Source: Lysobacterales bacterium (GTDB lineage: Bacteria; Pseudomonadota; Gammaproteobacteria; Xanthomonadales; SZUA-5). Taken from it: 56,791 nt of DNA. The notes beneath the pieces were generated by a model. That model was not told the DNA's origin, did no database searches, and saw only the letters and a list, made by a program, of their open reading frames with translations. Of this stretch, positions 4,593 to 22,347 are shown one piece after another. The stretch's first letter is position 1. Every line of letters starts with the position of its first letter. The translations under genes and the position numbers were made by a program. The stretch lies in NCBI GenBank assembly GCA_036722245.1, contig DAIMJK010000001.1, positions 1-56,791 on the forward strand, in the 5' to 3' direction.

Positions 4593-5801
4593 TCAATGGC
4601 GCGAGAGTGCGCCCAGTACGGTGTTGCCCGGGAAACTCTTGCCACCCCTGATCAGCTCCTGCGCGGCCTCGATGTCGGGTGTGCAATCCCAGAACAGCAC
4701 GCCCACAGGTCGATCGTTCTCCAAGTAGTAGCAGATCGACGCAGCGGCACCTGATCTGTTATCCAGGACCAATCGAAAGCTGTTCGAGATCAGACCGATT
4801 CCTTCATAACTGCAACCGGCCACCTGCGAATAGAAGTAGGGGAGCGCGTCATAACTCATGGACTTGCCAGCCATCGCACGACCGGCACAGAGCCCAGACA
4901 CGTTGGCATTCTCTTCGTGCTCAGCCCCTACCCATCGATCGAGATCCCGGCAGAAGTATTCGATGACATCGCCCGCCGCGAATACTGCCGGATCTTCCGT
5001 ATTGCAGTACTCACCCACCCTTATACCCCTTCCCACCGCCAAACCGGCGCCCTCTGCCAGCTCCCGATTCGGATCAAGACCAATCCCCGCGATCACGTGG
5101 CGAGCAGCAACATTCTCCCCGGTGTCACAAATCAAAGTGTGCCCGTTGGCGCTCGTCCGGACCCACTCGACCCGCCCTACTCGACGCACTGCCACACCTA
5201 CCTCACCAAGGGAATATTCCAGTCGATCAACCAACTCAGGCGGAAGAAACGACGAACATGGACCCAACCGTGAGCAGAGCAACGAAACCGCAGCACCTGA
5301 CTTGCGAACGCCGGCAGCAATCTCGGTACCTACCAAGCCTCCGCCAACGACACAAATCGGGTTCGAGGAAACAGAAACTGCTCGCACCTGCCGGTAATCA
5401 GCCAGCGTACGGAAATAGACAACACCTCCGTCCTCGCCTGGAAGCCTTCGAGCCCGCCCACCCGTGGCGATAAGCAGCTTCTCGTAAGCGTAAAGTTCAC
5501 CTCGATCATCCCGAGCTATCTTGCGATCACGATCGATGTTCACCACCCGCCGGCCCAGGCAAAGCTCAACGACGCGCCCTCTGGTCGCGCGCCAGATACG
5601 ATCGATCTGCATCCCGTCCCAGAGCGACTTGGACAAGGGCGGTCTGTTGTAAGGTGGATCAGCCTCATCCGAAACAAGGCCAATACTCCCTGCCTTGTCG
5701 GTCAGGCGGATACCCTTGATAGCGGAGTCAGCTGCCACACCTCCGCCAACCACCAAATACTTGAAACGCTTCACCCGAACCTCTCCCAAATTACCCCGCA
5801 T
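4593..5801 (-). CDS. FAD/NAD(P)-dependent pyridine-nucleotide-disulfide-family oxidoreductase, ferredoxin-reductase-like
   Basis: FAD Rossmann YLVVGGGVAADSA, ATGGRARRLP, NAD Rossmann VVGGGLVGTEIAAG, and AAGDV. An alternative GTG start at 5777 is preceded by GGGAGAGG with a 5-nt spacer. Confidence 0.85.
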   Translation of the reverse strand: MRGNLGEVRVKRFKYLVVGGGVAADSAIKGIRLTDKAGSIGLVSDEADPPYNRPPLSKSLWDGMQIDRIWRATRGRVVELCLGRRVVNIDRDRKIARDDRGELYAYEKLLIATGGRARRLPGEDGGVVYFRTLADYRQVRAVSVSSNPICVVGGGLVGTEIAAGVRKSGAAVSLLCSRLGPCSSFLPPELVDRLEYSLGEVGVAVRRVGRVEWVRTSANGHTLICDTGENVAARHVIAGIGLDPNRELAEGAGLAVGRGIRVGEYCNTEDPAVFAAGDVIEYFCRDLDRWVGAEHEENANVSGLCAGRAMAGKSMSYDALPYFYSQVAGCSYEGIGLISNSFRLVLDNRSGAAASICYYLENDRPVGVLFWDCTPDIEAAQELIRGGKSFPGNTVLGALSRH

Positions 5802-5830
5802 GACCGTGACACCGGTCTACTTTATAGGCA

Positions 5831-6514
5831 TCAGCAGAAAAACCATTCAGCCATGAACCTCCCGGTCCACGCCTCACCGAAGCTCTTGTTCATCAACGGT
5901 AGTCCGGGAGAATTGACATGATGATGATGCTTGTAGTTTCGTGAAAACGCAACGAAAGTCGAGACCTCTTCGCCGCTGCGCCGTCGAGGGGATTCCATCT
6001 CCGAACATATTCTCCCCCATACTTCGAAATGCACGGACTCCACCTCGGCAAAAGGCTCCAGCCCAGTCGGTCGAATAAACACATCCCAACCACTGCGACA
6101 CTCCTCGAACCAGCCCGGCGCATCTCCGTCATTGATCAAGTGCGGTCGAGTCAATCTGGCGAGGTCAAAACACCGCTTCGCGAAAGCTCTCGTAGCCCGC
6201 TCCTGGTCCGGCGCCACGGCATCAATGACTGCGACGATCGGCCGCGCCCCCAGACGGACGAACTCCATTGCGTAGATCGGCAACGCGAAATGCTCCGCTG
6301 GATAAAAGAACATCGTGATGATATCTATTTTTCCAGAGCGAATGGATGCTGCCCTGAATTCACCCACACTCCCGACATTGTACCTGCATGAACTGATAGC
6401 CAAAGAACCAGGCAAACTATCCTTCGCCTTCGCGCCCATATGATCAGGCGCTTGAATTTTCGTTACACCGAAAGGCACCAACCCCAAGGTCCCATCGATC
6501 ATATCTGAGAACAT
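5831..6514 (-). CDS. Ferredoxin-dependent bilin reductase (FDBR, PcyA/PebA/HY2 superfamily), divergent
   Basis: IDIITMFFYPAEHFALPIYAMEFVRLGARPIVAVIDAVAP, WDVFIRP and C-terminal NKSFGEAWTGRFMAEWFF parallel the PcyA blocks as I remember them (ILHCVMFPEP..LPLFGCDIV; LFIRPS; EKAFGEAWAERYMSQVLF). ATG 6514 follows GGGAGA and lies 1 nt after the upstream stop. Confidence 0.8.
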   Translation of the reverse strand: MFSDMIDGTLGLVPFGVTKIQAPDHMGAKAKDSLPGSLAISSCRYNVGSVGEFRAASIRSGKIDIITMFFYPAEHFALPIYAMEFVRLGARPIVAVIDAVAPDQERATRAFAKRCFDLARLTRPHLINDGDAPGWFEECRSGWDVFIRPTGLEPFAEVESVHFEVWGRICSEMESPRRRSGEEVSTFVAFSRNYKHHHHVNSPGLPLMNKSFGEAWTGRFMAEWFFC

Positions 6515-20288: not shown

Positions 20289-20319
20289 GTTGCCTTCCTC
20301 GTCAGATGTGTATCGGTGG

Positions 20320-22347
20320 TCAACCATGGTCATCGGTCATTTCCCGCGGGTGACCCAGCAAGTATCCCTGCAACAACTCGCACCCCATGTCACGCAAACA
20401 TGCCAACTGTGCTGGCTCCTCGACGCCTTCGGCGGTGACCGACAATCCGAGACGACCGGCCAGATCGACCAGCGCATGAACCATGGTTTGATCGCGACCG
20501 AGCTGGGCGACAAGCTGCACGAACCGCCGATCGATCTTGATTCCCGCGATGGGGAATCGCTGCAGATGGGTCAATGATGAAAAACCCACCCCGAAGTCAT
20601 CCAGAATCAACTTGACCCCCAAATCACACAGGCAATGCAGCCGAGCCAGTGTCATGCTCTCGTCACAGAACAGCGCCGTCTCTGTCAATTCAATACGCAA
20701 AGACTGGATTATTTCGGGGGACTCTTGCCGCAACCGGGCAAGATAAGTGTCCAGGCCGCTGCCGGCCAGCGTGCGTGGTGACACATTCACGCTGATCCAA
20801 TGCTCCCTGCGCTGCTGCCCGACATGCCACTTCCTCAGCTGACCCAGCACTGCGGCGAGCATCCACTCGTCAATCAGCGGGATAGCGCCACCCGCTTCAG
20901 CGACGTCCAGAAATTCCATTGGCTGCAGCAGACCATGAATCGGATGTTGCCAGCGCACCAGAGCCTCATAGCCTGCCGTGCCCAGATTTCCGGCCGCGAA
21001 GATGGGCTGGAGATAACAGCGCAGCTCTTCGTTGGCTACGGCCGCATGCAAGTCGGAGAGAAGCTCGATTCGGCGTTGGGTTTCGTCACGCATGACTGGA
21101 TCGTATGCAACCACCTGACCGAAACCGCGGTCCTTGGCTTGATGCAAGGCGGAGTCTGCCGCTCGAACCAGATCGGTCGCATTGGTCGAACAGTACTCGG
21201 GCGTGACCACACCAATGGAGGCACTCAGCACCAGTCGCGACCCCTCGATTGGAAGGGACGTGGAAAAAATTCGCATGATCCTCCCGACCAGTGCATCGAT
21301 CTCGGCCTGGCCGTTTGAGTAATCAAGCATCACCGCGAACTCATCGGCACCAAACCGGGCGACATAATCGGTTTCCCGAATTGCAACCCGGATCCTCGTT
21401 GCCAGAGTGCGCAAGACACCATCACCAACACGTTCGCCCAACCCATCGTTGATCAAGCGAAATCTATCAATATCCAGCAATAGCAACGCTGGTGCCGAAA
21501 CCGTGGTATCGGACAATCGGTCCTTGAGTTTTCGCAGGAAGCTCACCCTATTTGGCAAGCGAGTGAGCGGATCGAAATACGCAGCCCGACCAAGCTGCCG
21601 CTCCACTCTCTTCTGCGGCCGCATGTCATATGCGCTGACAATCAGATACGTATCACTGCCGAAAGCCGCGATCTCGACGCTAAGCAGAACCGGCATTTGA
21701 TATCCAGAGCGGGTCAGCAGCGCATCTTCCAGCTTCACCGGTCCGAACACATTGTCAGCAAAGAGGGTGCTGAGTCTGTTTGTTCTGAAAATCTGATCAA
21801 AGTGGAGTGATCCGAACTCACCAACGGAATATCCACTATGCTCTTGAAAGCAACGATTCCATCGTATCACTACGCCGCTGGAATTGAATACGCAGAACAT
21901 CGCGGGCAATGCGTCCATGATCGTCTGTGCGAACCGGAGTTCACGCGCAATGCTGCAAGTTCGATCCGCGATCCCAAAACTACCGATGGACACCGGATGT
22001 TGCTCGGAGAGCACTGCCGGCATGGGTCGTACGCGAAGCTCAATATTCAGCGCGCCGTCGGGTCTTGAACTGCTCGCGGCGGAACATTCCAGGCGATGAT
22101 CCAATTTGTACCAGTGGCCCGGGGAGGGACCCCGGCTGGCCTCCGCGAAGACTCGACCCAAGACCACCGACAGCGCCGGATCAAGGGCCGCGATCAGAGT
22201 GTGAAAAGCGTCTGGAGTCTCGACCAGGTCGAACTCGCGCAGCAACCTCGCGTCGGCATACAACACCTGCCCGCTCTCGATCAGGAGCTTCATTTCCGAA
22301 TGCGCCCCGGCGGCAGTGCCGGGAGGCCTTTCGACCACCTGATTCAT
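20320..22347 (-). CDS. PAS-GGDEF-EAL c-di-GMP turnover protein
   Basis: GGDEF-domain block RFGADEFAVML (GADEF variant). EAL blocks GYEALVRW, IELTE, LDDFGVGFSS, KIDRRF, EGVE and QGYL. Start at MNQVVERPP (ATG 22347, GGAGAG upstream) or ATG 22428. The track start 22794 would overlap gvpL and encodes junk. Confidence 0.85.
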   Translation of the reverse strand: MNQVVERPPGTAAGAHSEMKLLIESGQVLYADARLLREFDLVETPDAFHTLIAALDPALSVVLGRVFAEASRGPSPGHWYKLDHRLECSAASSSRPDGALNIELRVRPMPAVLSEQHPVSIGSFGIADRTCSIARELRFAQTIMDALPAMFCVFNSSGVVIRWNRCFQEHSGYSVGEFGSLHFDQIFRTNRLSTLFADNVFGPVKLEDALLTRSGYQMPVLLSVEIAAFGSDTYLIVSAYDMRPQKRVERQLGRAAYFDPLTRLPNRVSFLRKLKDRLSDTTVSAPALLLLDIDRFRLINDGLGERVGDGVLRTLATRIRVAIRETDYVARFGADEFAVMLDYSNGQAEIDALVGRIMRIFSTSLPIEGSRLVLSASIGVVTPEYCSTNATDLVRAADSALHQAKDRGFGQVVAYDPVMRDETQRRIELLSDLHAAVANEELRCYLQPIFAAGNLGTAGYEALVRWQHPIHGLLQPMEFLDVAEAGGAIPLIDEWMLAAVLGQLRKWHVGQQRREHWISVNVSPRTLAGSGLDTYLARLRQESPEIIQSLRIELTETALFCDESMTLARLHCLCDLGVKLILDDFGVGFSSLTHLQRFPIAGIKIDRRFVQLVAQLGRDQTMVHALVDLAGRLGLSVTAEGVEEPAQLACLRDMGCELLQGYLLGHPREMTDDHG

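What the first reader, a model, noticed from the sequence alone, without database searches (positions are those of the whole stretch)
4593..22347. Self-contained bilin-synthesis plus phycobiliprotein-like globin operon in an apparently non-photosynthetic context
Thirteen co-directional genes are packed with overlapping or abutting stop/start codons: 20320/20333 overlap, TAGGATG at 18028-18032, ATGA at 14066-14069, TAATG at 10052, and stop 6516 next to ATG 6514. They combine the following:
- an FDBR-like bilin reductase (5831-6514);
- its presumptive electron supply, a 2Fe-2S ferredoxin (13602-14069) and an FAD reductase (4593-5801);
- one single-domain and two giant multi-module phycobiliprotein-like proteins;
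- two V4R domains, a 748-aa coiled coil, and a Hanks kinase/CX5R phosphatase pair;
- a PAS-GGDEF-EAL protein as the first gene.

Three more same-strand genes follow after a 130-nt gap: a hypothetical, an Hpt and a TPR hybrid kinase (1295-4462). No photosystem, (bacterio)chlorophyll, phytochrome or lyase gene is visible.

As I recall, FDBR-like genes clustered with phycobiliprotein-related globins ('BBAGs') in heterotrophic bacteria were reported by Rockwell, Martin and Lagarias (PNAS 2023). The single-domain globin next to an FDBR is therefore probably not new. I do not recognise the multi-module giants, the V4R pair, the coiled coil, the kinase/phosphatase or the c-di-GMP gene as part of any described system.

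Inference: this is a bilin-loaded, scaffolded sensory or light-harvesting-like assembly with phospho- and c-di-GMP outputs.
Basis: partly seen in the sequence, partly recalled or inferred. Interest (0 to 1): 0.92.

Follow-up and report, generated by a model that had tools for sequence, protein, structure and literature searches.

The report
Extended bilin–globin gene cluster with giants
A stromatolite bacterium with no photosynthesis genes in view carries the published "pre-PcyA/BBAG" bilin-making gene cluster, and with it a conserved but undescribed set of partners, including giant proteins built from tandem phycobiliprotein-like modules.

Summary
Thirteen co-directional, overlapping or abutting genes lie at 4593-22347 on the minus strand, and nearly every domain call was confirmed.

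The core is the "pre-1" pre-PcyA cluster of Rockwell et al. 2023: FDBR, BBAG globin, 2Fe-2S protein, two V4R proteins, and a heme oxygenase nearby.

Neither paper's text mentions the following, and I show them conserved in 16 fetched loci (beta/gamma-proteobacteria; two untyped metagenome contigs):
- A Hanks kinase, an orphan 214-aa protein and a CX5R phosphatase always sit between the second V4R gene and the FDBR.
- A variable protein sits before the globin; here it is expanded into a 748-aa coiled coil.
- A giant of 1150-2100 aa sits directly upstream of the ferredoxin.

The giant family is rare: 71 representatives among 1.84 billion proteins. It contains about five repeated modules. Its AlphaFold model (pLDDT 87) matches phycocyanin and allophycocyanin, and two modules carry the CxRD bilin-attachment motif in roughly half of the relatives.

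Function is inferred: a bilin-loaded multi-globin assembly regulated by phosphorylation, most likely sensory. Verdict: a new variant of a known kind, of moderately high interest.

The parts
20320..22347 (-). First gene: PAS-GGDEF(GADEF)-EAL protein, probably a c-di-GMP phosphodiesterase. It is divergent from gvpL/F at 22551.
   Evidence: EAL 1.3e-59, GGDEF 5.3e-36, PAS_8 3e-4. The GADEF and EAL motifs were read from the translation. A homologous gene sits upstream of the giant in L002 and L008.
18030..20333 (-). G767: a 767-aa protein with several phycobiliprotein-like segments and three CxRD motifs (C101, C223, C686).
   Evidence: PF00502 1e-11, two stretches. A family profile against PDB sequences hits almost only phycobiliproteins, at three separate regions (1e-5, 1.1e-4, 5e-3). 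C223 and C686 are invariant in the three homologues. hhalign to the G1346 family gives 96% probability in several registers.
14066..18028 (-). G1346: a 1320-aa giant of about five tandem ~215-255-aa helical modules with phycobiliprotein-like cores. In this copy the Cys of CxRD is replaced (STLRD, KGLRD).
   Evidence: No Pfam hit. 71 relatives among 1.84e9 representatives, nearly all 1150-2100 aa. Internal repeats at hhalign probability 90-97%. AF2 pLDDT 87.2, pTM 0.76. All Foldseek hits shown with probability >=0.99 are phycocyanin/allophycocyanin, TMt 0.58-0.62. Module profiles against PDB: 38/40 and 8/10 hits are phycobiliproteins, in register with Cys84. Cys occupies the motif position in 24/53 and 26/53 relatives.
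13602..14069 (-). Cluster 2Fe-2S ferredoxin: a Fer2 domain plus a ~60-aa C-terminal extension.
   Evidence: Fer2 2.1e-11; fdx_isc-type 4e-13. 56-88% identical in the fetched loci that reach it. It is the 'Fe-S protein' of the published cluster.
12933..13592 (-). First V4R protein; the most conserved gene of the cluster.
   Evidence: V4R 1.6e-17. 62-90% identity across loci, and 71% even in distant L017.
10676..12922 (-). 748-aa coiled-coil protein: an expanded member of the 'X' protein family that always sits between V4R_1 and the globin (244-357 aa elsewhere).
   Evidence: SMC-like coiled-coil matches only. The C-terminal ~70 aa are conserved with L002, L003 and L009; the N-terminus is conserved with L001. 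A 244-1127-aa ORF fills this slot in every locus.
10052..10663 (-). Single-domain BBAG-1-type globin. The motif is KAPRD, with no Cys.
   Evidence: PF00502 4.9e-9. 30 homologues. The alignment shows K-[AC]-x-R-D. It is syntenic with the Methylovulum/Methylococcaceae clusters (L011, L012), the lineage of the characterised BBAG-1.
9363..10052 (-). Second V4R protein, a paralogue ~25% identical to the first.
   Evidence: V4R 2e-3, below the Pfam cut-off. It cross-hits V4R_1 and is present after the globin in 15 of 15 loci that reach the slot.
7658..9394 (-). Hanks-type Ser/Thr kinase with a ~300-aa C-terminal domain of unknown fold.
   Evidence: Pkinase 4.5e-36. The C-terminal part has no PDB or Pfam match. 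Present in 13 of 14 loci that reach the slot; absent in L010.
7030..7674 (-). Orphan 214-aa protein (U224) with conserved YSHxW...WDxADxP...HPxR motifs.
   Evidence: No Pfam, NCBIfam or PDB match. Homologues in 8 loci (L002, L003, L005, L007-L010, L012), and a same-size gene fills this slot in L017.
6516..7025 (-). Cys-based phosphatase of the dual-specificity/PTP type.
   Evidence: DSPc 0.048; PTPMT1 0.019. C-x5-R-S is conserved in 7 homologues.
5831..6514 (-). Pre-1-type pre-PcyA ferredoxin-dependent bilin reductase.
   Evidence: PF05996 2.2e-11, above cut-off. Best PDB relatives are PcyA. The positions aligned to PcyA Glu76/His88/Asp105 are Ala56/Thr67/Glu84, which is the published pre-1 signature.
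4593..5801 (-). FAD/NAD(P)H ferredoxin reductase of the putidaredoxin-reductase/AIF type; the last gene of the tight block.
   Evidence: Pyr_redox_2 2e-46, with weak Reductase_C/AIF_C matches. Present in L002 and L003 (and in L019, a contig of this same genome).
33012..33914 (-). Heme oxygenase, first gene of an HO / LuxR-type response regulator (32342-33001) / hybrid histidine kinase (30679-32349) operon.
   Evidence: PF01126 6.8e-7; REC+GerE; HisKA-HATPase-REC. HO, a LuxR-type regulator and a histidine kinase adjoin the cluster in L002 and, by Pfam, in L017 (its HO was not a tblastn hit). HO is also adjacent in L009, L010 and L012.
1295..4462 (-). Downstream same-strand genes: a 120-aa hypothetical, an Hpt protein and a TPR hybrid histidine kinase. 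They are possibly associated signalling genes.
   Evidence: Hpt 4.6e-12; TPR_12/HisKA/HATPase/REC. Histidine-kinase genes also flank L002 and L003.

Best explanation
This is an extended version of the pre-1 'pre-PcyA/BBAG' bilin system of non-photosynthetic bacteria.

Proposed mechanism:
1. Heme oxygenase (33012-33914) opens heme to biliverdin (inferred).
2. The pre-1 FDBR (5831-6514) reduces biliverdin by two electrons to a phytochromobilin-type bilin. This was shown in vitro for a pre-1 homologue, not for this protein.
3. Electrons flow NAD(P)H -> FAD reductase (4593-5801) -> cluster 2Fe-2S ferredoxin (13602-14069) -> FDBR (inferred from the gene pairing).
4. The bilin is taken up without a lyase by phycobiliprotein-like globins:
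   - the single-domain BBAG, which lacks the Cys and would bind non-covalently;
   - the 767-aa protein, with three CxRD sites and potentially covalent binding;
   - the 1320-aa five-module giant, which has lost the Cys here and would bind non-covalently or act as a scaffold.
5. The two V4R proteins and the X/coiled-coil protein act as ligand-handling and scaffolding partners (inferred).
6. The conserved Hanks kinase, 214-aa protein and Cys-phosphatase reversibly phosphorylate a cluster component. By analogy with SpkG and ferredoxin 5 in the Synechocystis slr0144-slr0152 operon, that component is most likely the ferredoxin (inferred).
7. The assembly works as a regulated bilin-based sensor of light, redox or oxygen rather than as an energy-harvesting antenna. 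In this lineage it feeds c-di-GMP and two-component signalling (inferred).
For: - Gene content, order and translational-coupling overlaps. There is no excess of internal terminators or promoters (14 found against 17 expected; 1 against 5.2).
- The FDBR is above the Pfam cut-off and carries the pre-1 Ala/Thr/Glu signature. Pre-1 enzymes make 3E-phytochromobilin.
- BBAG-1 and BBAG-3 bind bilins without lyases.
- The published cluster definition (HO, Fe-S, two V4R, 1-2 globins, FDBR) is met.
- The order giant-Fdx-V4R-X-BBAG-V4R-kinase-U224-phosphatase-FDBR is conserved in Lysobacterales, Xanthomonas, Agitococcus, Moraxellaceae (two copies), Burkholderiaceae, Polaromonas, a Betaproteobacteria MAG, and a distant MAG contig. 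Methylococcaceae keep the order without the giant.
- The giants are phycobiliprotein-like.
- The phosphatase motif is conserved.
- In Synechocystis the homologous operon ends with the kinase gene spkG, which is needed for ferredoxin 5 phosphorylation.
- HO plus a LuxR regulator plus a histidine kinase recur next to the cluster.
- The sequence comes from stromatolite metagenomes, a lit habitat.
Against: - Nothing here shows bilin binding, phosphorylation or transcription.
- The characterised pre-1 FDBR and BBAG-1 from Methylovulum were poorly active and poorly chromophorylated, and BBAGs were photoinert with quantum yields of 3-7%.
- In this genome the BBAG and G1346 lack the attachment Cys.
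- The FAD reductase and the c-di-GMP gene are lineage-specific.
- Orthology of the kinase to SpkG was not tested.
- The giants are absent from the Methylococcaceae and Thiomargarita loci, so they are accessory to the core.
- V4R function is unknown in any system.
Confidence: 0.6

Rival explanations
1. Proto-antenna. The multi-module globins carry many bilins and act as a light-harvesting array, a single-chain phycobilisome-like rod. It would pass energy to a photochemical acceptor or photosensor encoded elsewhere.
For: - Tandem phycobiliprotein-fold modules with CxRD sites.
- A confident, compact multi-module model, pTM 0.76.
- A lit stromatolite habitat.
- Phycobiliproteins are sister to BBAG-1/3.
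Against: - No reaction-centre, rhodopsin, phytochrome or chlorophyll gene in 57 kb.
- BBAGs have low fluorescence yield and are judged inefficient for harvesting.
- Carriers include methanotrophs, Thiomargarita and other non-phototrophs.
- G1346 here lacks the attachment Cys.
Confidence: 0.12
2. Light-independent tetrapyrrole or redox housekeeping. The cluster handles heme breakdown products, or assembles or repairs a cofactor-protein complex. The cyanobacterial slr0144-slr0152 ('PSII assembly') operon has been proposed to do this, using the Fe-S and V4R proteins. Here the globins would be bilin or heme sinks or oxygen/redox sensors.
For: - Fdx and V4R_1 are by far the most conserved genes (56-90% against 22-67% for globins, kinase and FDBR).
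- V4R domains occur in redox and ligand sensors such as MsvR and BchJ.
- The cyanobacterial relatives are linked to photosystem assembly rather than sensing.
- BBAGs are photoinert.
Against: - The conserved kinase/phosphatase pair and the neighbouring HK/RR, Hpt and c-di-GMP genes point to signalling.
- Heme detoxification would not need an FDBR or large arrays of globin modules.
Confidence: 0.23
3. The giants are generic alpha-helical solenoid scaffolds (HEAT/ARM-like) unrelated to globins, and the PF00502 matches are spurious.
For: - The lowest Foldseek E-values for the whole 1200-residue model belong to large helical repeat proteins.
- G1346 has no Pfam hit.
- hhalign to the BBAG profile is weak, E about 0.01.
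Against: - Those solenoid matches have probability <=0.21 and TM about 0.1, whereas every hit shown with probability >=0.99 is a phycobiliprotein at TMt about 0.6.
- Module profiles pull out almost only phycobiliproteins from 177,635 PDB sequences, in register with Cys84.
- CxRD(N) is the family consensus.
- G767 passes the Pfam cut-off.
Confidence: 0.03

Closest known systems
Pre-1 pre-PcyA / BBAG-1 gene cluster (Rockwell, Martin & Lagarias, PNAS 2023, PMC10151467; Frascogna et al., Protein Sci 2026, PMC13446030)
   Same: - An FDBR with the pre-1 active-site signature.
- An adjacent PF00502 globin, two V4R paralogues, a 2Fe-2S protein and a nearby HO.
- Occurrence in beta/gamma-proteobacteria.
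- The accession spacing of the published Methylovulum cluster (BBAG POZ53552 to FDBR POZ53557, five genes on) fits the order found here. The spacing of the Opitutales cluster (HO MCH8539435, large protein MCH8539434, FDBR MCH8539424) fits the order seen in L017.
   Different: - The papers define the cluster by five or six gene types. Their text never mentions the kinase, the 214-aa protein, the phosphatase, the X/coiled-coil protein or the giant multi-globin proteins.
- This locus adds a second giant (G767), a dedicated FAD reductase and a PAS-GGDEF-EAL gene.
- Its HO is displaced 10.7 kb by a gas-vesicle cluster.
- Its BBAG lacks the CxRD cysteine.
Synechocystis sp. PCC 6803 slr0144-slr0152 operon (V4R proteins, ferredoxin 5, BBAG slr0149, TPR protein slr0151, kinase SpkG)
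   Same: V4R proteins, a 2Fe-2S ferredoxin, a BBAG-type globin and a Ser/Thr kinase as last gene of the operon. Loss of SpkG abolishes ferredoxin 5 phosphorylation.
   Different: - It is cyanobacterial and has no FDBR in the cluster.
- No giant, phosphatase or 214-aa protein is reported there.
- It is linked to photosystem assembly.
- Sequence-level orthology of the kinases was not tested here.
Light-harvesting phycobiliproteins and the core-membrane linker ApcE
   Same: The globin-like phycobiliprotein fold and the CxRD bilin-attachment motif. ApcE shows that a phycobiliprotein domain can be embedded in a large multi-domain chain.
   Different: - Phycobiliproteins are single ~160-170-aa domains that assemble as alpha-beta rings and need lyases.
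- ApcE has one phycobiliprotein domain followed by linker (REP) domains.
- The giants instead string several phycobiliprotein-like modules in one chain, occur in non-phototrophs, and have no lyase gene nearby.
Photoglobins and BBAG-2 (globin plus B12-binding proteins)
   Same: Bilin-binding globins of the same superfamily in heterotrophs, proposed to be sensory.
   Different: A different lineage with CXQD or RGMC motifs, B12-binding partners, and no V4R or Fe-S genes.

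Membership tests
Pre-1 pre-PcyA/BBAG-1 gene cluster (Rockwell 2023) | FDBR of the pre-1 lineage: Glu at PcyA Asp105, Thr/Asn at His88, no Glu76 | tested here: met
   Alignment to Synechocystis PcyA gives Ala56/Thr67/Glu84, matching the criteria. No phylogenetic tree was built.
Pre-1 pre-PcyA/BBAG-1 gene cluster (Rockwell 2023) | One or two phycobiliprotein-related globins in the cluster | tested here: met
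   PF00502 4.9e-9 for 10052-10663. It is syntenic with globins in Methylovulum/Methylococcaceae loci.
Pre-1 pre-PcyA/BBAG-1 gene cluster (Rockwell 2023) | Two V4R proteins of distinct clades plus an Fe-S protein | tested here: met
   V4R 1.6e-17 and 2e-3, Fer2 2e-11. The two V4R genes are ~25% identical paralogues, and each has positional orthologues in the fetched loci that reach its slot. The clade A/B labels were not assigned.
Pre-1 pre-PcyA/BBAG-1 gene cluster (Rockwell 2023) | Heme oxygenase in or near the cluster | tested here: met
   PF01126 6.8e-7 at 33012-33914, 10.7 kb upstream and separated by gvp genes. HO is directly adjacent in L002, L009, L010, L012 and L017.
Pre-1 pre-PcyA/BBAG-1 gene cluster (Rockwell 2023) | FDBR activity and bilin binding by the globin | not testable with these tools
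   This needs co-expression and spectroscopy. Published data exist only for homologues.
Phycobiliprotein superfamily (PF00502), tested for G767 | Profile match above the curated cut-off, plus the CxRD motif | tested here: met
   45.5 bits against a cut-off of 22.2. Three regions hit PDB phycobiliproteins. CxRD is at C101, C223 and C686.
Phycobiliprotein superfamily (PF00502), tested for G1346 | Profile match to the family | tested here: inconclusive
   No Pfam hit. However, module profiles hit phycocyanins in the PDB (7e-4 and 0.025; 38/40 and 8/10 hits). hhalign to the G767 family gives 96%.
Phycobiliprotein superfamily (PF00502), tested for G1346 | Phycobiliprotein (globin-like) fold | tested here: met
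   AF2 model pLDDT 87.2. Foldseek gives probability 0.99-1.00 and TMt 0.58-0.62 over 155-162 columns to phycocyanin/allophycocyanin. Which modules match is not reported by the tool.
Phycobiliprotein superfamily (PF00502), tested for G1346 | Cys of CxRD for covalent bilin attachment | tested here: not met
   The window copy has STLRD and KGLRD. Cys is present in 24/53 and 26/53 relatives.
Light-harvesting phycobilisome components | Alpha-beta ring assembly, lyase dependence, energy transfer to photosystems | not testable with these tools
   No lyase or photosystem genes in the window. Assembly and photophysics need experiments.
Synechocystis slr0144-slr0152-type operon with SpkG | The kinase is orthologous to SpkG and phosphorylates the cluster ferredoxin | not tested
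   Only the gene-content parallel from the literature. No SpkG sequence was compared.
Cys-based protein phosphatases (PTP/DSP) | The C-x5-R(S/T) P-loop in the right fold | tested here: inconclusive
   The motif is conserved in 7 homologues. DSPc scores 13.9 bits against a cut-off of 33.5. PTPMT1 matches at 0.019.

The most novel reading that the evidence does not exclude
The giants are single-chain, multi-bilin arrays of phycobiliprotein-like modules that pre-date or parallel the phycobilisome. In heterotrophs of lit microbial mats they would form, with the BBAG, V4R and coiled-coil proteins, a large chromophore assembly. Its state would be read out through a dedicated Ser/Thr kinase/phosphatase switch, c-di-GMP and two-component signalling. 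In this genome it may control the gas-vesicle genes embedded between HO and the cluster, giving light-guided buoyancy. The kinase module would then be ancestral to SpkG of the cyanobacterial operon.
Probability: 0.15. Interest if true: 0.9.

Novelty: new variant of a known kind. Interest (0 to 1): 0.62.

Why it matters
The origin of phycobiliproteins, and the function of BBAG clusters, are stated open questions. Three results bear on them.

1. **The conserved unit is larger than published.** In proteobacteria, and in at least one distant lineage, it comprises about 11-12 genes rather than 5-6.

2. **It includes a kinase / orphan protein / phosphatase switch.** This mirrors SpkG of the cyanobacterial operon. 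It suggests that the adjacent genes set aside in the 2023 paper may belong to the ancestral system. It also points to a concrete regulatory target to test, the cluster ferredoxin.

3. **A rare family of giants shows tandem phycobiliprotein-type domains in non-phototrophs.** These proteins string several such domains in one chain. They form a previously unremarked branch of the superfamily, and they are a natural place to look for multi-chromophore behaviour.

Cultivable carriers exist (Agitococcus lubricus DSM 5822, Methylovulum psychrotolerans), so these ideas can be tested directly.

Tried and rejected
- **BLASTP and a first hhalign of G1346 against G767, the BBAG and itself**, using a shallow 9-sequence profile, gave only marginal scores. 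The 53-sequence profile resolved this.
- **Both word-indexed homologue searches for G1346** returned only itself and one relative. The alignment-based one was a wasted search.
- **A9/A2 profile of the whole giant against the PDB** gave nothing.
- **Single-sequence AlphaFold of G767** was useless (pLDDT 42), so it was not used for fold search.
- **The 214-aa protein and the kinase C-terminal domain** have no Pfam, NCBIfam or PDB relatives. Their folds remain unknown.
- **Gas-vesicle proteins, U271 and U215** have no counterparts in the related loci. The gvp adjacency is therefore specific to this genome and is not treated as part of the system.
- **Literature searches** for multi-domain phycobiliprotein-like proteins in heterotrophs, and for gas-vesicle/bilin links, found nothing relevant.
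- **The organism name could not be obtained.** The closest relatives are Lysobacterales/Xanthomonadales MAGs.
- **The idea that the cluster is a chance juxtaposition** was rejected on synteny.

Full report

Yes. All long ORFs between 1295 and 22794 that make sense lie on the minus strand.

The quoted junctions were read from the sequence:
- The PAS-GGDEF-EAL gene overlaps the 767-aa gene by 14 nt.
- TAGGATG links the 767-aa gene to the next one (ATG at 18028).
- ATGA links the giant to the ferredoxin gene.
- TAATG links the globin gene to the second V4R gene.
- The phosphatase stop lies one base before the FDBR ATG.
- The V4R_2/kinase and kinase/214-aa junctions also overlap.

A consensus scan found no excess of promoter-like or terminator-like sites inside the block (1 against 5.2 expected; 14 against 17). 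This is compatible with one transcription unit that starts in the 200-nt divergent region at 22348-22550. Transcription itself was not tested.

**2. Domain assignments**

Pfam confirms the following:
- FAD reductase (2e-46).
- FDBR (PF05996, 44 bits against a cut-off of 31).
- Hanks kinase (4.5e-36).
- Two V4R proteins (1.6e-17, and a sub-threshold 2e-3).
- Single-domain PF00502 globin (4.9e-9).
- 2Fe-2S ferredoxin (2e-11).
- PF00502 in the 767-aa protein (1e-11, two stretches).
- PAS-GGDEF-EAL, Hpt and a TPR hybrid kinase.

The phosphatase is only weakly DSPc-like (0.048; PTPMT1 at 0.019). Its C-x5-R-S loop is conserved in seven homologues.

The 748-aa protein gives only SMC-type coiled-coil matches.

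The GGDEF motif reads GADEF while EAL is intact. The first gene is therefore more likely a phosphodiesterase than a cyclase.

**3. What is already known**

Rockwell, Martin and Lagarias (PMC10151467) describe pre-1 and pre-3 pre-PcyA clusters. These contain HO, an Fe-S protein, two V4R proteins of separate clades, one or two phycobiliprotein-related globins (BBAGs) and the FDBR. Pre-1 occurs in beta- and gamma-proteobacteria among others.

The FDBR here aligns to Synechocystis PcyA with Ala, Thr and Glu at the positions of Glu76, His88 and Asp105. That is the pre-1 pattern reported for POZ53557 and MCC5789364.

The core of the finding is therefore a new member of a published system. The ferredoxin is likewise a defining member.

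A pre-1 enzyme converts biliverdin to 3E-phytochromobilin in vitro. BBAG-1 and BBAG-3 bind bilins without a lyase, are photoinert and fluoresce weakly.

**4. What lies beyond the published description**

*Search for related loci.* A genome scan with a BBAG alignment found 13 loci:
- a Lysobacterales MAG;
- a Xanthomonas MAG;
- Agitococcus lubricus DSM 5822;
- Moraxellaceae AER2_44_116 (two copies);
- Burkholderiaceae;
- a Betaproteobacteria MAG;
- Polaromonas;
- Competibacterales;
- Methylovulum;
- Methylococcaceae;
- Thiomargarita;
- one MAG labelled Enterobacteriaceae.

One more locus came from a homologue of the giant. Two more came from distant giants.

*Conserved gene order.* tblastn and ORF tables show this order: giant - Fdx - V4R_1 - X - BBAG - V4R_2 - kinase - 214-aa protein - phosphatase - FDBR.

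| Component | Present / loci that reach the slot | Notes |
|---|---|---|
| V4R_2 | 15 / 15 | |
| Kinase | 13 / 14 | absent in L010 |
| 214-aa protein | 9 / 9 | in L017 judged by position and size only |
| Phosphatase | 8 / 9 | in L017 judged by position and size only |
| FDBR | 8 / 9 | |
| Giant | 10 / 12 | absent in the Methylococcaceae and Thiomargarita loci |

*Lineage-specific genes.*
- The FAD reductase and the 767-aa protein occur only in the window and its two closest relatives, L002 and L003.
- The PAS-GGDEF-EAL gene occurs in the window, L002 and L008.

*The X slot.* It holds a 244-357-aa protein in most loci. In the Lysobacterales-type loci it holds a 721-1127-aa coiled-coil version that shares the terminal segments.

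*HO and its partners.* HO, a LuxR-type regulator and a histidine kinase adjoin the cluster in L002 and, by Pfam annotation, in L017. HO alone is adjacent in L009, L010 and L012.

*Fit to the published clusters.*
- Locus L017 comes from NCBI assembly GCA_022565335.1. Its numbering suggests the series that yielded the Opitutales MAGs of Frascogna et al. 2026, but I did not verify this.
- Its order is HO - 1947-aa giant - HHH protein - Fer2 - V4R - X - BBAG - V4R - kinase - 214 aa - 198 aa - FDBR.
- This fits the accession spacing of the published Opitutales cluster (HO MCH8539435, 'protein MCH8539434', FDBR MCH8539424).
- The extra genes are therefore probably drawn as unlabelled boxes in the published figures. 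Neither paper's text nor the held supplement mentions a kinase, a phosphatase, a coiled coil or large globin proteins.

**5. The giants**

*G767.*
- It passes the Pfam cut-off.
- A three-sequence family profile searched against all PDB sequences returns almost only phycobiliproteins. The hits fall at three separate regions, each aligned to residues ~3-110 of a phycobiliprotein and centred on the Cys82/84 site (E = 1e-5, 1.1e-4 and 5e-3).
- It carries CxRD at C101, C223 and C686. The latter two are invariant in its homologues.

*G1346: distribution and repeats.*
- It has no Pfam hit.
- An exhaustive phmmer search of 1.84 billion representatives found only 71 relatives. Nearly all are 1150-2100 aa.
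- The exceptions include ~770-aa proteins that carry PF00502.
- With a 53-sequence profile, hhalign relates the G1346 and G767 families at 96% probability in several registers. It also detects internal repeats at 90-97% probability, with offsets of about 213-257 and about 682 residues. That implies about five modules.

*G1346: structure.*
- AlphaFold2 with that alignment gives an all-helical model: pLDDT 87.2 and pTM 0.76 over 1200 residues.
- In Foldseek against the PDB, large solenoids top the E-value list but have probability <=0.21 and TM about 0.1.
- Every hit shown with probability >=0.99 is a phycocyanin or allophycocyanin (155-162 aligned columns, TMt 0.58-0.62).

*G1346: individual modules.*
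- A profile of one module against the PDB gave 38 phycobiliproteins among 40 hits (best 7e-4).
- A profile of a second module gave 8 among 10 (best 0.025). Both sets are in register with Cys84.
- At those two sites the family consensus is C-x-R-D-(N). Cys is present in 24 and 26 of 53 members.
- The window's copy has Thr and Gly there. The window's BBAG has Ala.

The qualification is that only G767 retains canonical attachment cysteines in this genome.

**6. Context**

Between the cluster and the HO operon lies a full gas-vesicle cluster: gvpA at 30332-30550, GvpN-like, two GvpF/L, GvpJ/K/G-like small ORFs, HSP20 and a CDC48-type AAA ATPase.

The rest of the window is dense in signalling genes: chemosensory CheA/MCP/CheW, several hybrid kinases, REC-EAL and VUPS-GGDEF.

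No photosystem, chlorophyll, phytochrome or lyase domain was detected.

The gvp genes have no counterpart next to the related clusters, so this adjacency is specific to this genome.

The FDBR sequence occurs in stromatolite metagenome runs of PRJNA315555. The organism therefore lives in a lit microbial mat. Its closest relatives by protein identity are Lysobacterales/Xanthomonadales MAGs.

**7. Mechanism**

Shown by computation:
- gene content, order and conservation;
- the pre-1 signature of the FDBR;
- the phycobiliprotein fold and motifs of the giants.

Taken from the literature on homologues:
- pre-1 activity (BV to 3E-phytochromobilin);
- lyase-independent bilin binding by BBAGs;
- SpkG-dependent phosphorylation of ferredoxin 5 in the related Synechocystis operon.

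Inferred:
- The electron path NAD(P)H - FdR - Fdx - FDBR.
- Loading of bilin on G767 (covalent) and on BBAG and G1346 (non-covalent or scaffold).
- A carrier or scaffold role for the V4R and X proteins.
- The kinase/phosphatase pair acting on a cluster protein such as the ferredoxin.
- A sensory rather than energy-harvesting output.

I put about 0.6 on this overall picture. I am much more confident about the biosynthesis-plus-binding half than about the sensory half.

The main rival is a light-independent role in tetrapyrrole or redox handling (about 0.23). It is favoured by the very high conservation of Fdx and V4R_1 and by the photoinert BBAGs. A true antenna role is unlikely (about 0.12). 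A non-globin solenoid reading of the giants is essentially excluded.

**8. Novelty and score**

The locus is a new member of the known pre-1 BBAG cluster. Its conserved extended architecture and the giant tandem phycobiliprotein-like family are not described in the literature I could search. I therefore class it as a new variant of a known kind.

A specialist would not be surprised by the FDBR/BBAG/V4R/Fe-S core. The same specialist would probably be interested in two things: the tandem-module giants, and the conserved kinase/phosphatase module with its parallel to SpkG.

The reasons are that the central idea is published and that function remains inferred.

Noticed in passing
window 22551-30550 (both strands): A complete gas-vesicle gene cluster lies between the bilin cluster and the HO / LuxR-RR / hybrid-HK operon. 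It comprises gvpA (30332-30550), a GvpN-like AAA (28480-29688), GvpF/L (27116-27847 and 22551-23312 on the + strand), small GvpJ/M/K/G-like ORFs (25983-27113), HSP20 (25502-26083) and a CDC48-type double AAA ATPase (23391-25553). gvpA follows the kinase gene after 128 nt on the same strand, which raises the possibility of bilin- or TCS-regulated buoyancy. No gvp genes adjoin the related clusters.
   Followed up: partly
window 30679-33914 (-): Heme oxygenase is the first gene of an HO / LuxR-type response regulator / hybrid histidine kinase operon. HO, a LuxR-type regulator and a histidine kinase also sit next to the cluster in L002 (convergent, after the FAD reductase) and, by Pfam annotation, in L017 (kinase and regulator divergent from HO). 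The kinase's ~180-aa N-terminal region has no recognised sensor domain.
   Followed up: partly
window 34739-56791: The remainder of the window is an unusually dense signalling island. It holds several stand-alone REC proteins, REC-EAL (37159-38385, + strand), VUPS-GGDEF (38731-40011), a CheA-like hybrid kinase (40065-43736), an MCP (43772-46303), CheW, an OmpR-type regulator, three more hybrid kinases and an Hpt protein (55222-55839).
   Followed up: no
window 20320-22347 (-): The GGDEF domain of the first gene has GADEF in place of GG(D/E)EF, while the EAL motif is intact. This suggests phosphodiesterase rather than cyclase activity.
   Followed up: no
window 10052-10663, 14066-18028 and 18030-20333: Within one genome, the single globin (KAPRD) and the larger giant (STLRD, KGLRD) have lost the attachment Cys that many of their orthologues keep. 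The 767-aa protein keeps three CxRD sites. This points to a division of labour between covalent and non-covalent (or non-binding) globin modules.
   Followed up: partly
L005 and L008 (Moraxellaceae bacterium AER2_44_116, contigs VIAD01000001 and VIAD01000010): One genome carries two complete copies of the extended cluster (giant to FDBR) on different contigs. This is consistent with the cluster duplications noted for pre-1 by Rockwell et al.
   Followed up: no
L017 22067-23264; L009 13134-16901: There are lineage-specific additions downstream of the phosphatase/FDBR. L017 has a second Fer2 gene and a PP2C-type phosphatase. Polaromonas (L009) has a 1255-aa ORF inserted between the phosphatase and an inverted FDBR gene.
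   Followed up: no
L018, L015 (P0098, P0099; ~770-aa PF00502 proteins): A separate set of ~760-795-aa proteins has an N-terminal PF00502 domain and a C-terminal module similar to G1346 module C. They occur on short metagenomic contigs, and in L018 there are no adjacent cluster genes. Their relation to G767 is unclear.
   Followed up: partly
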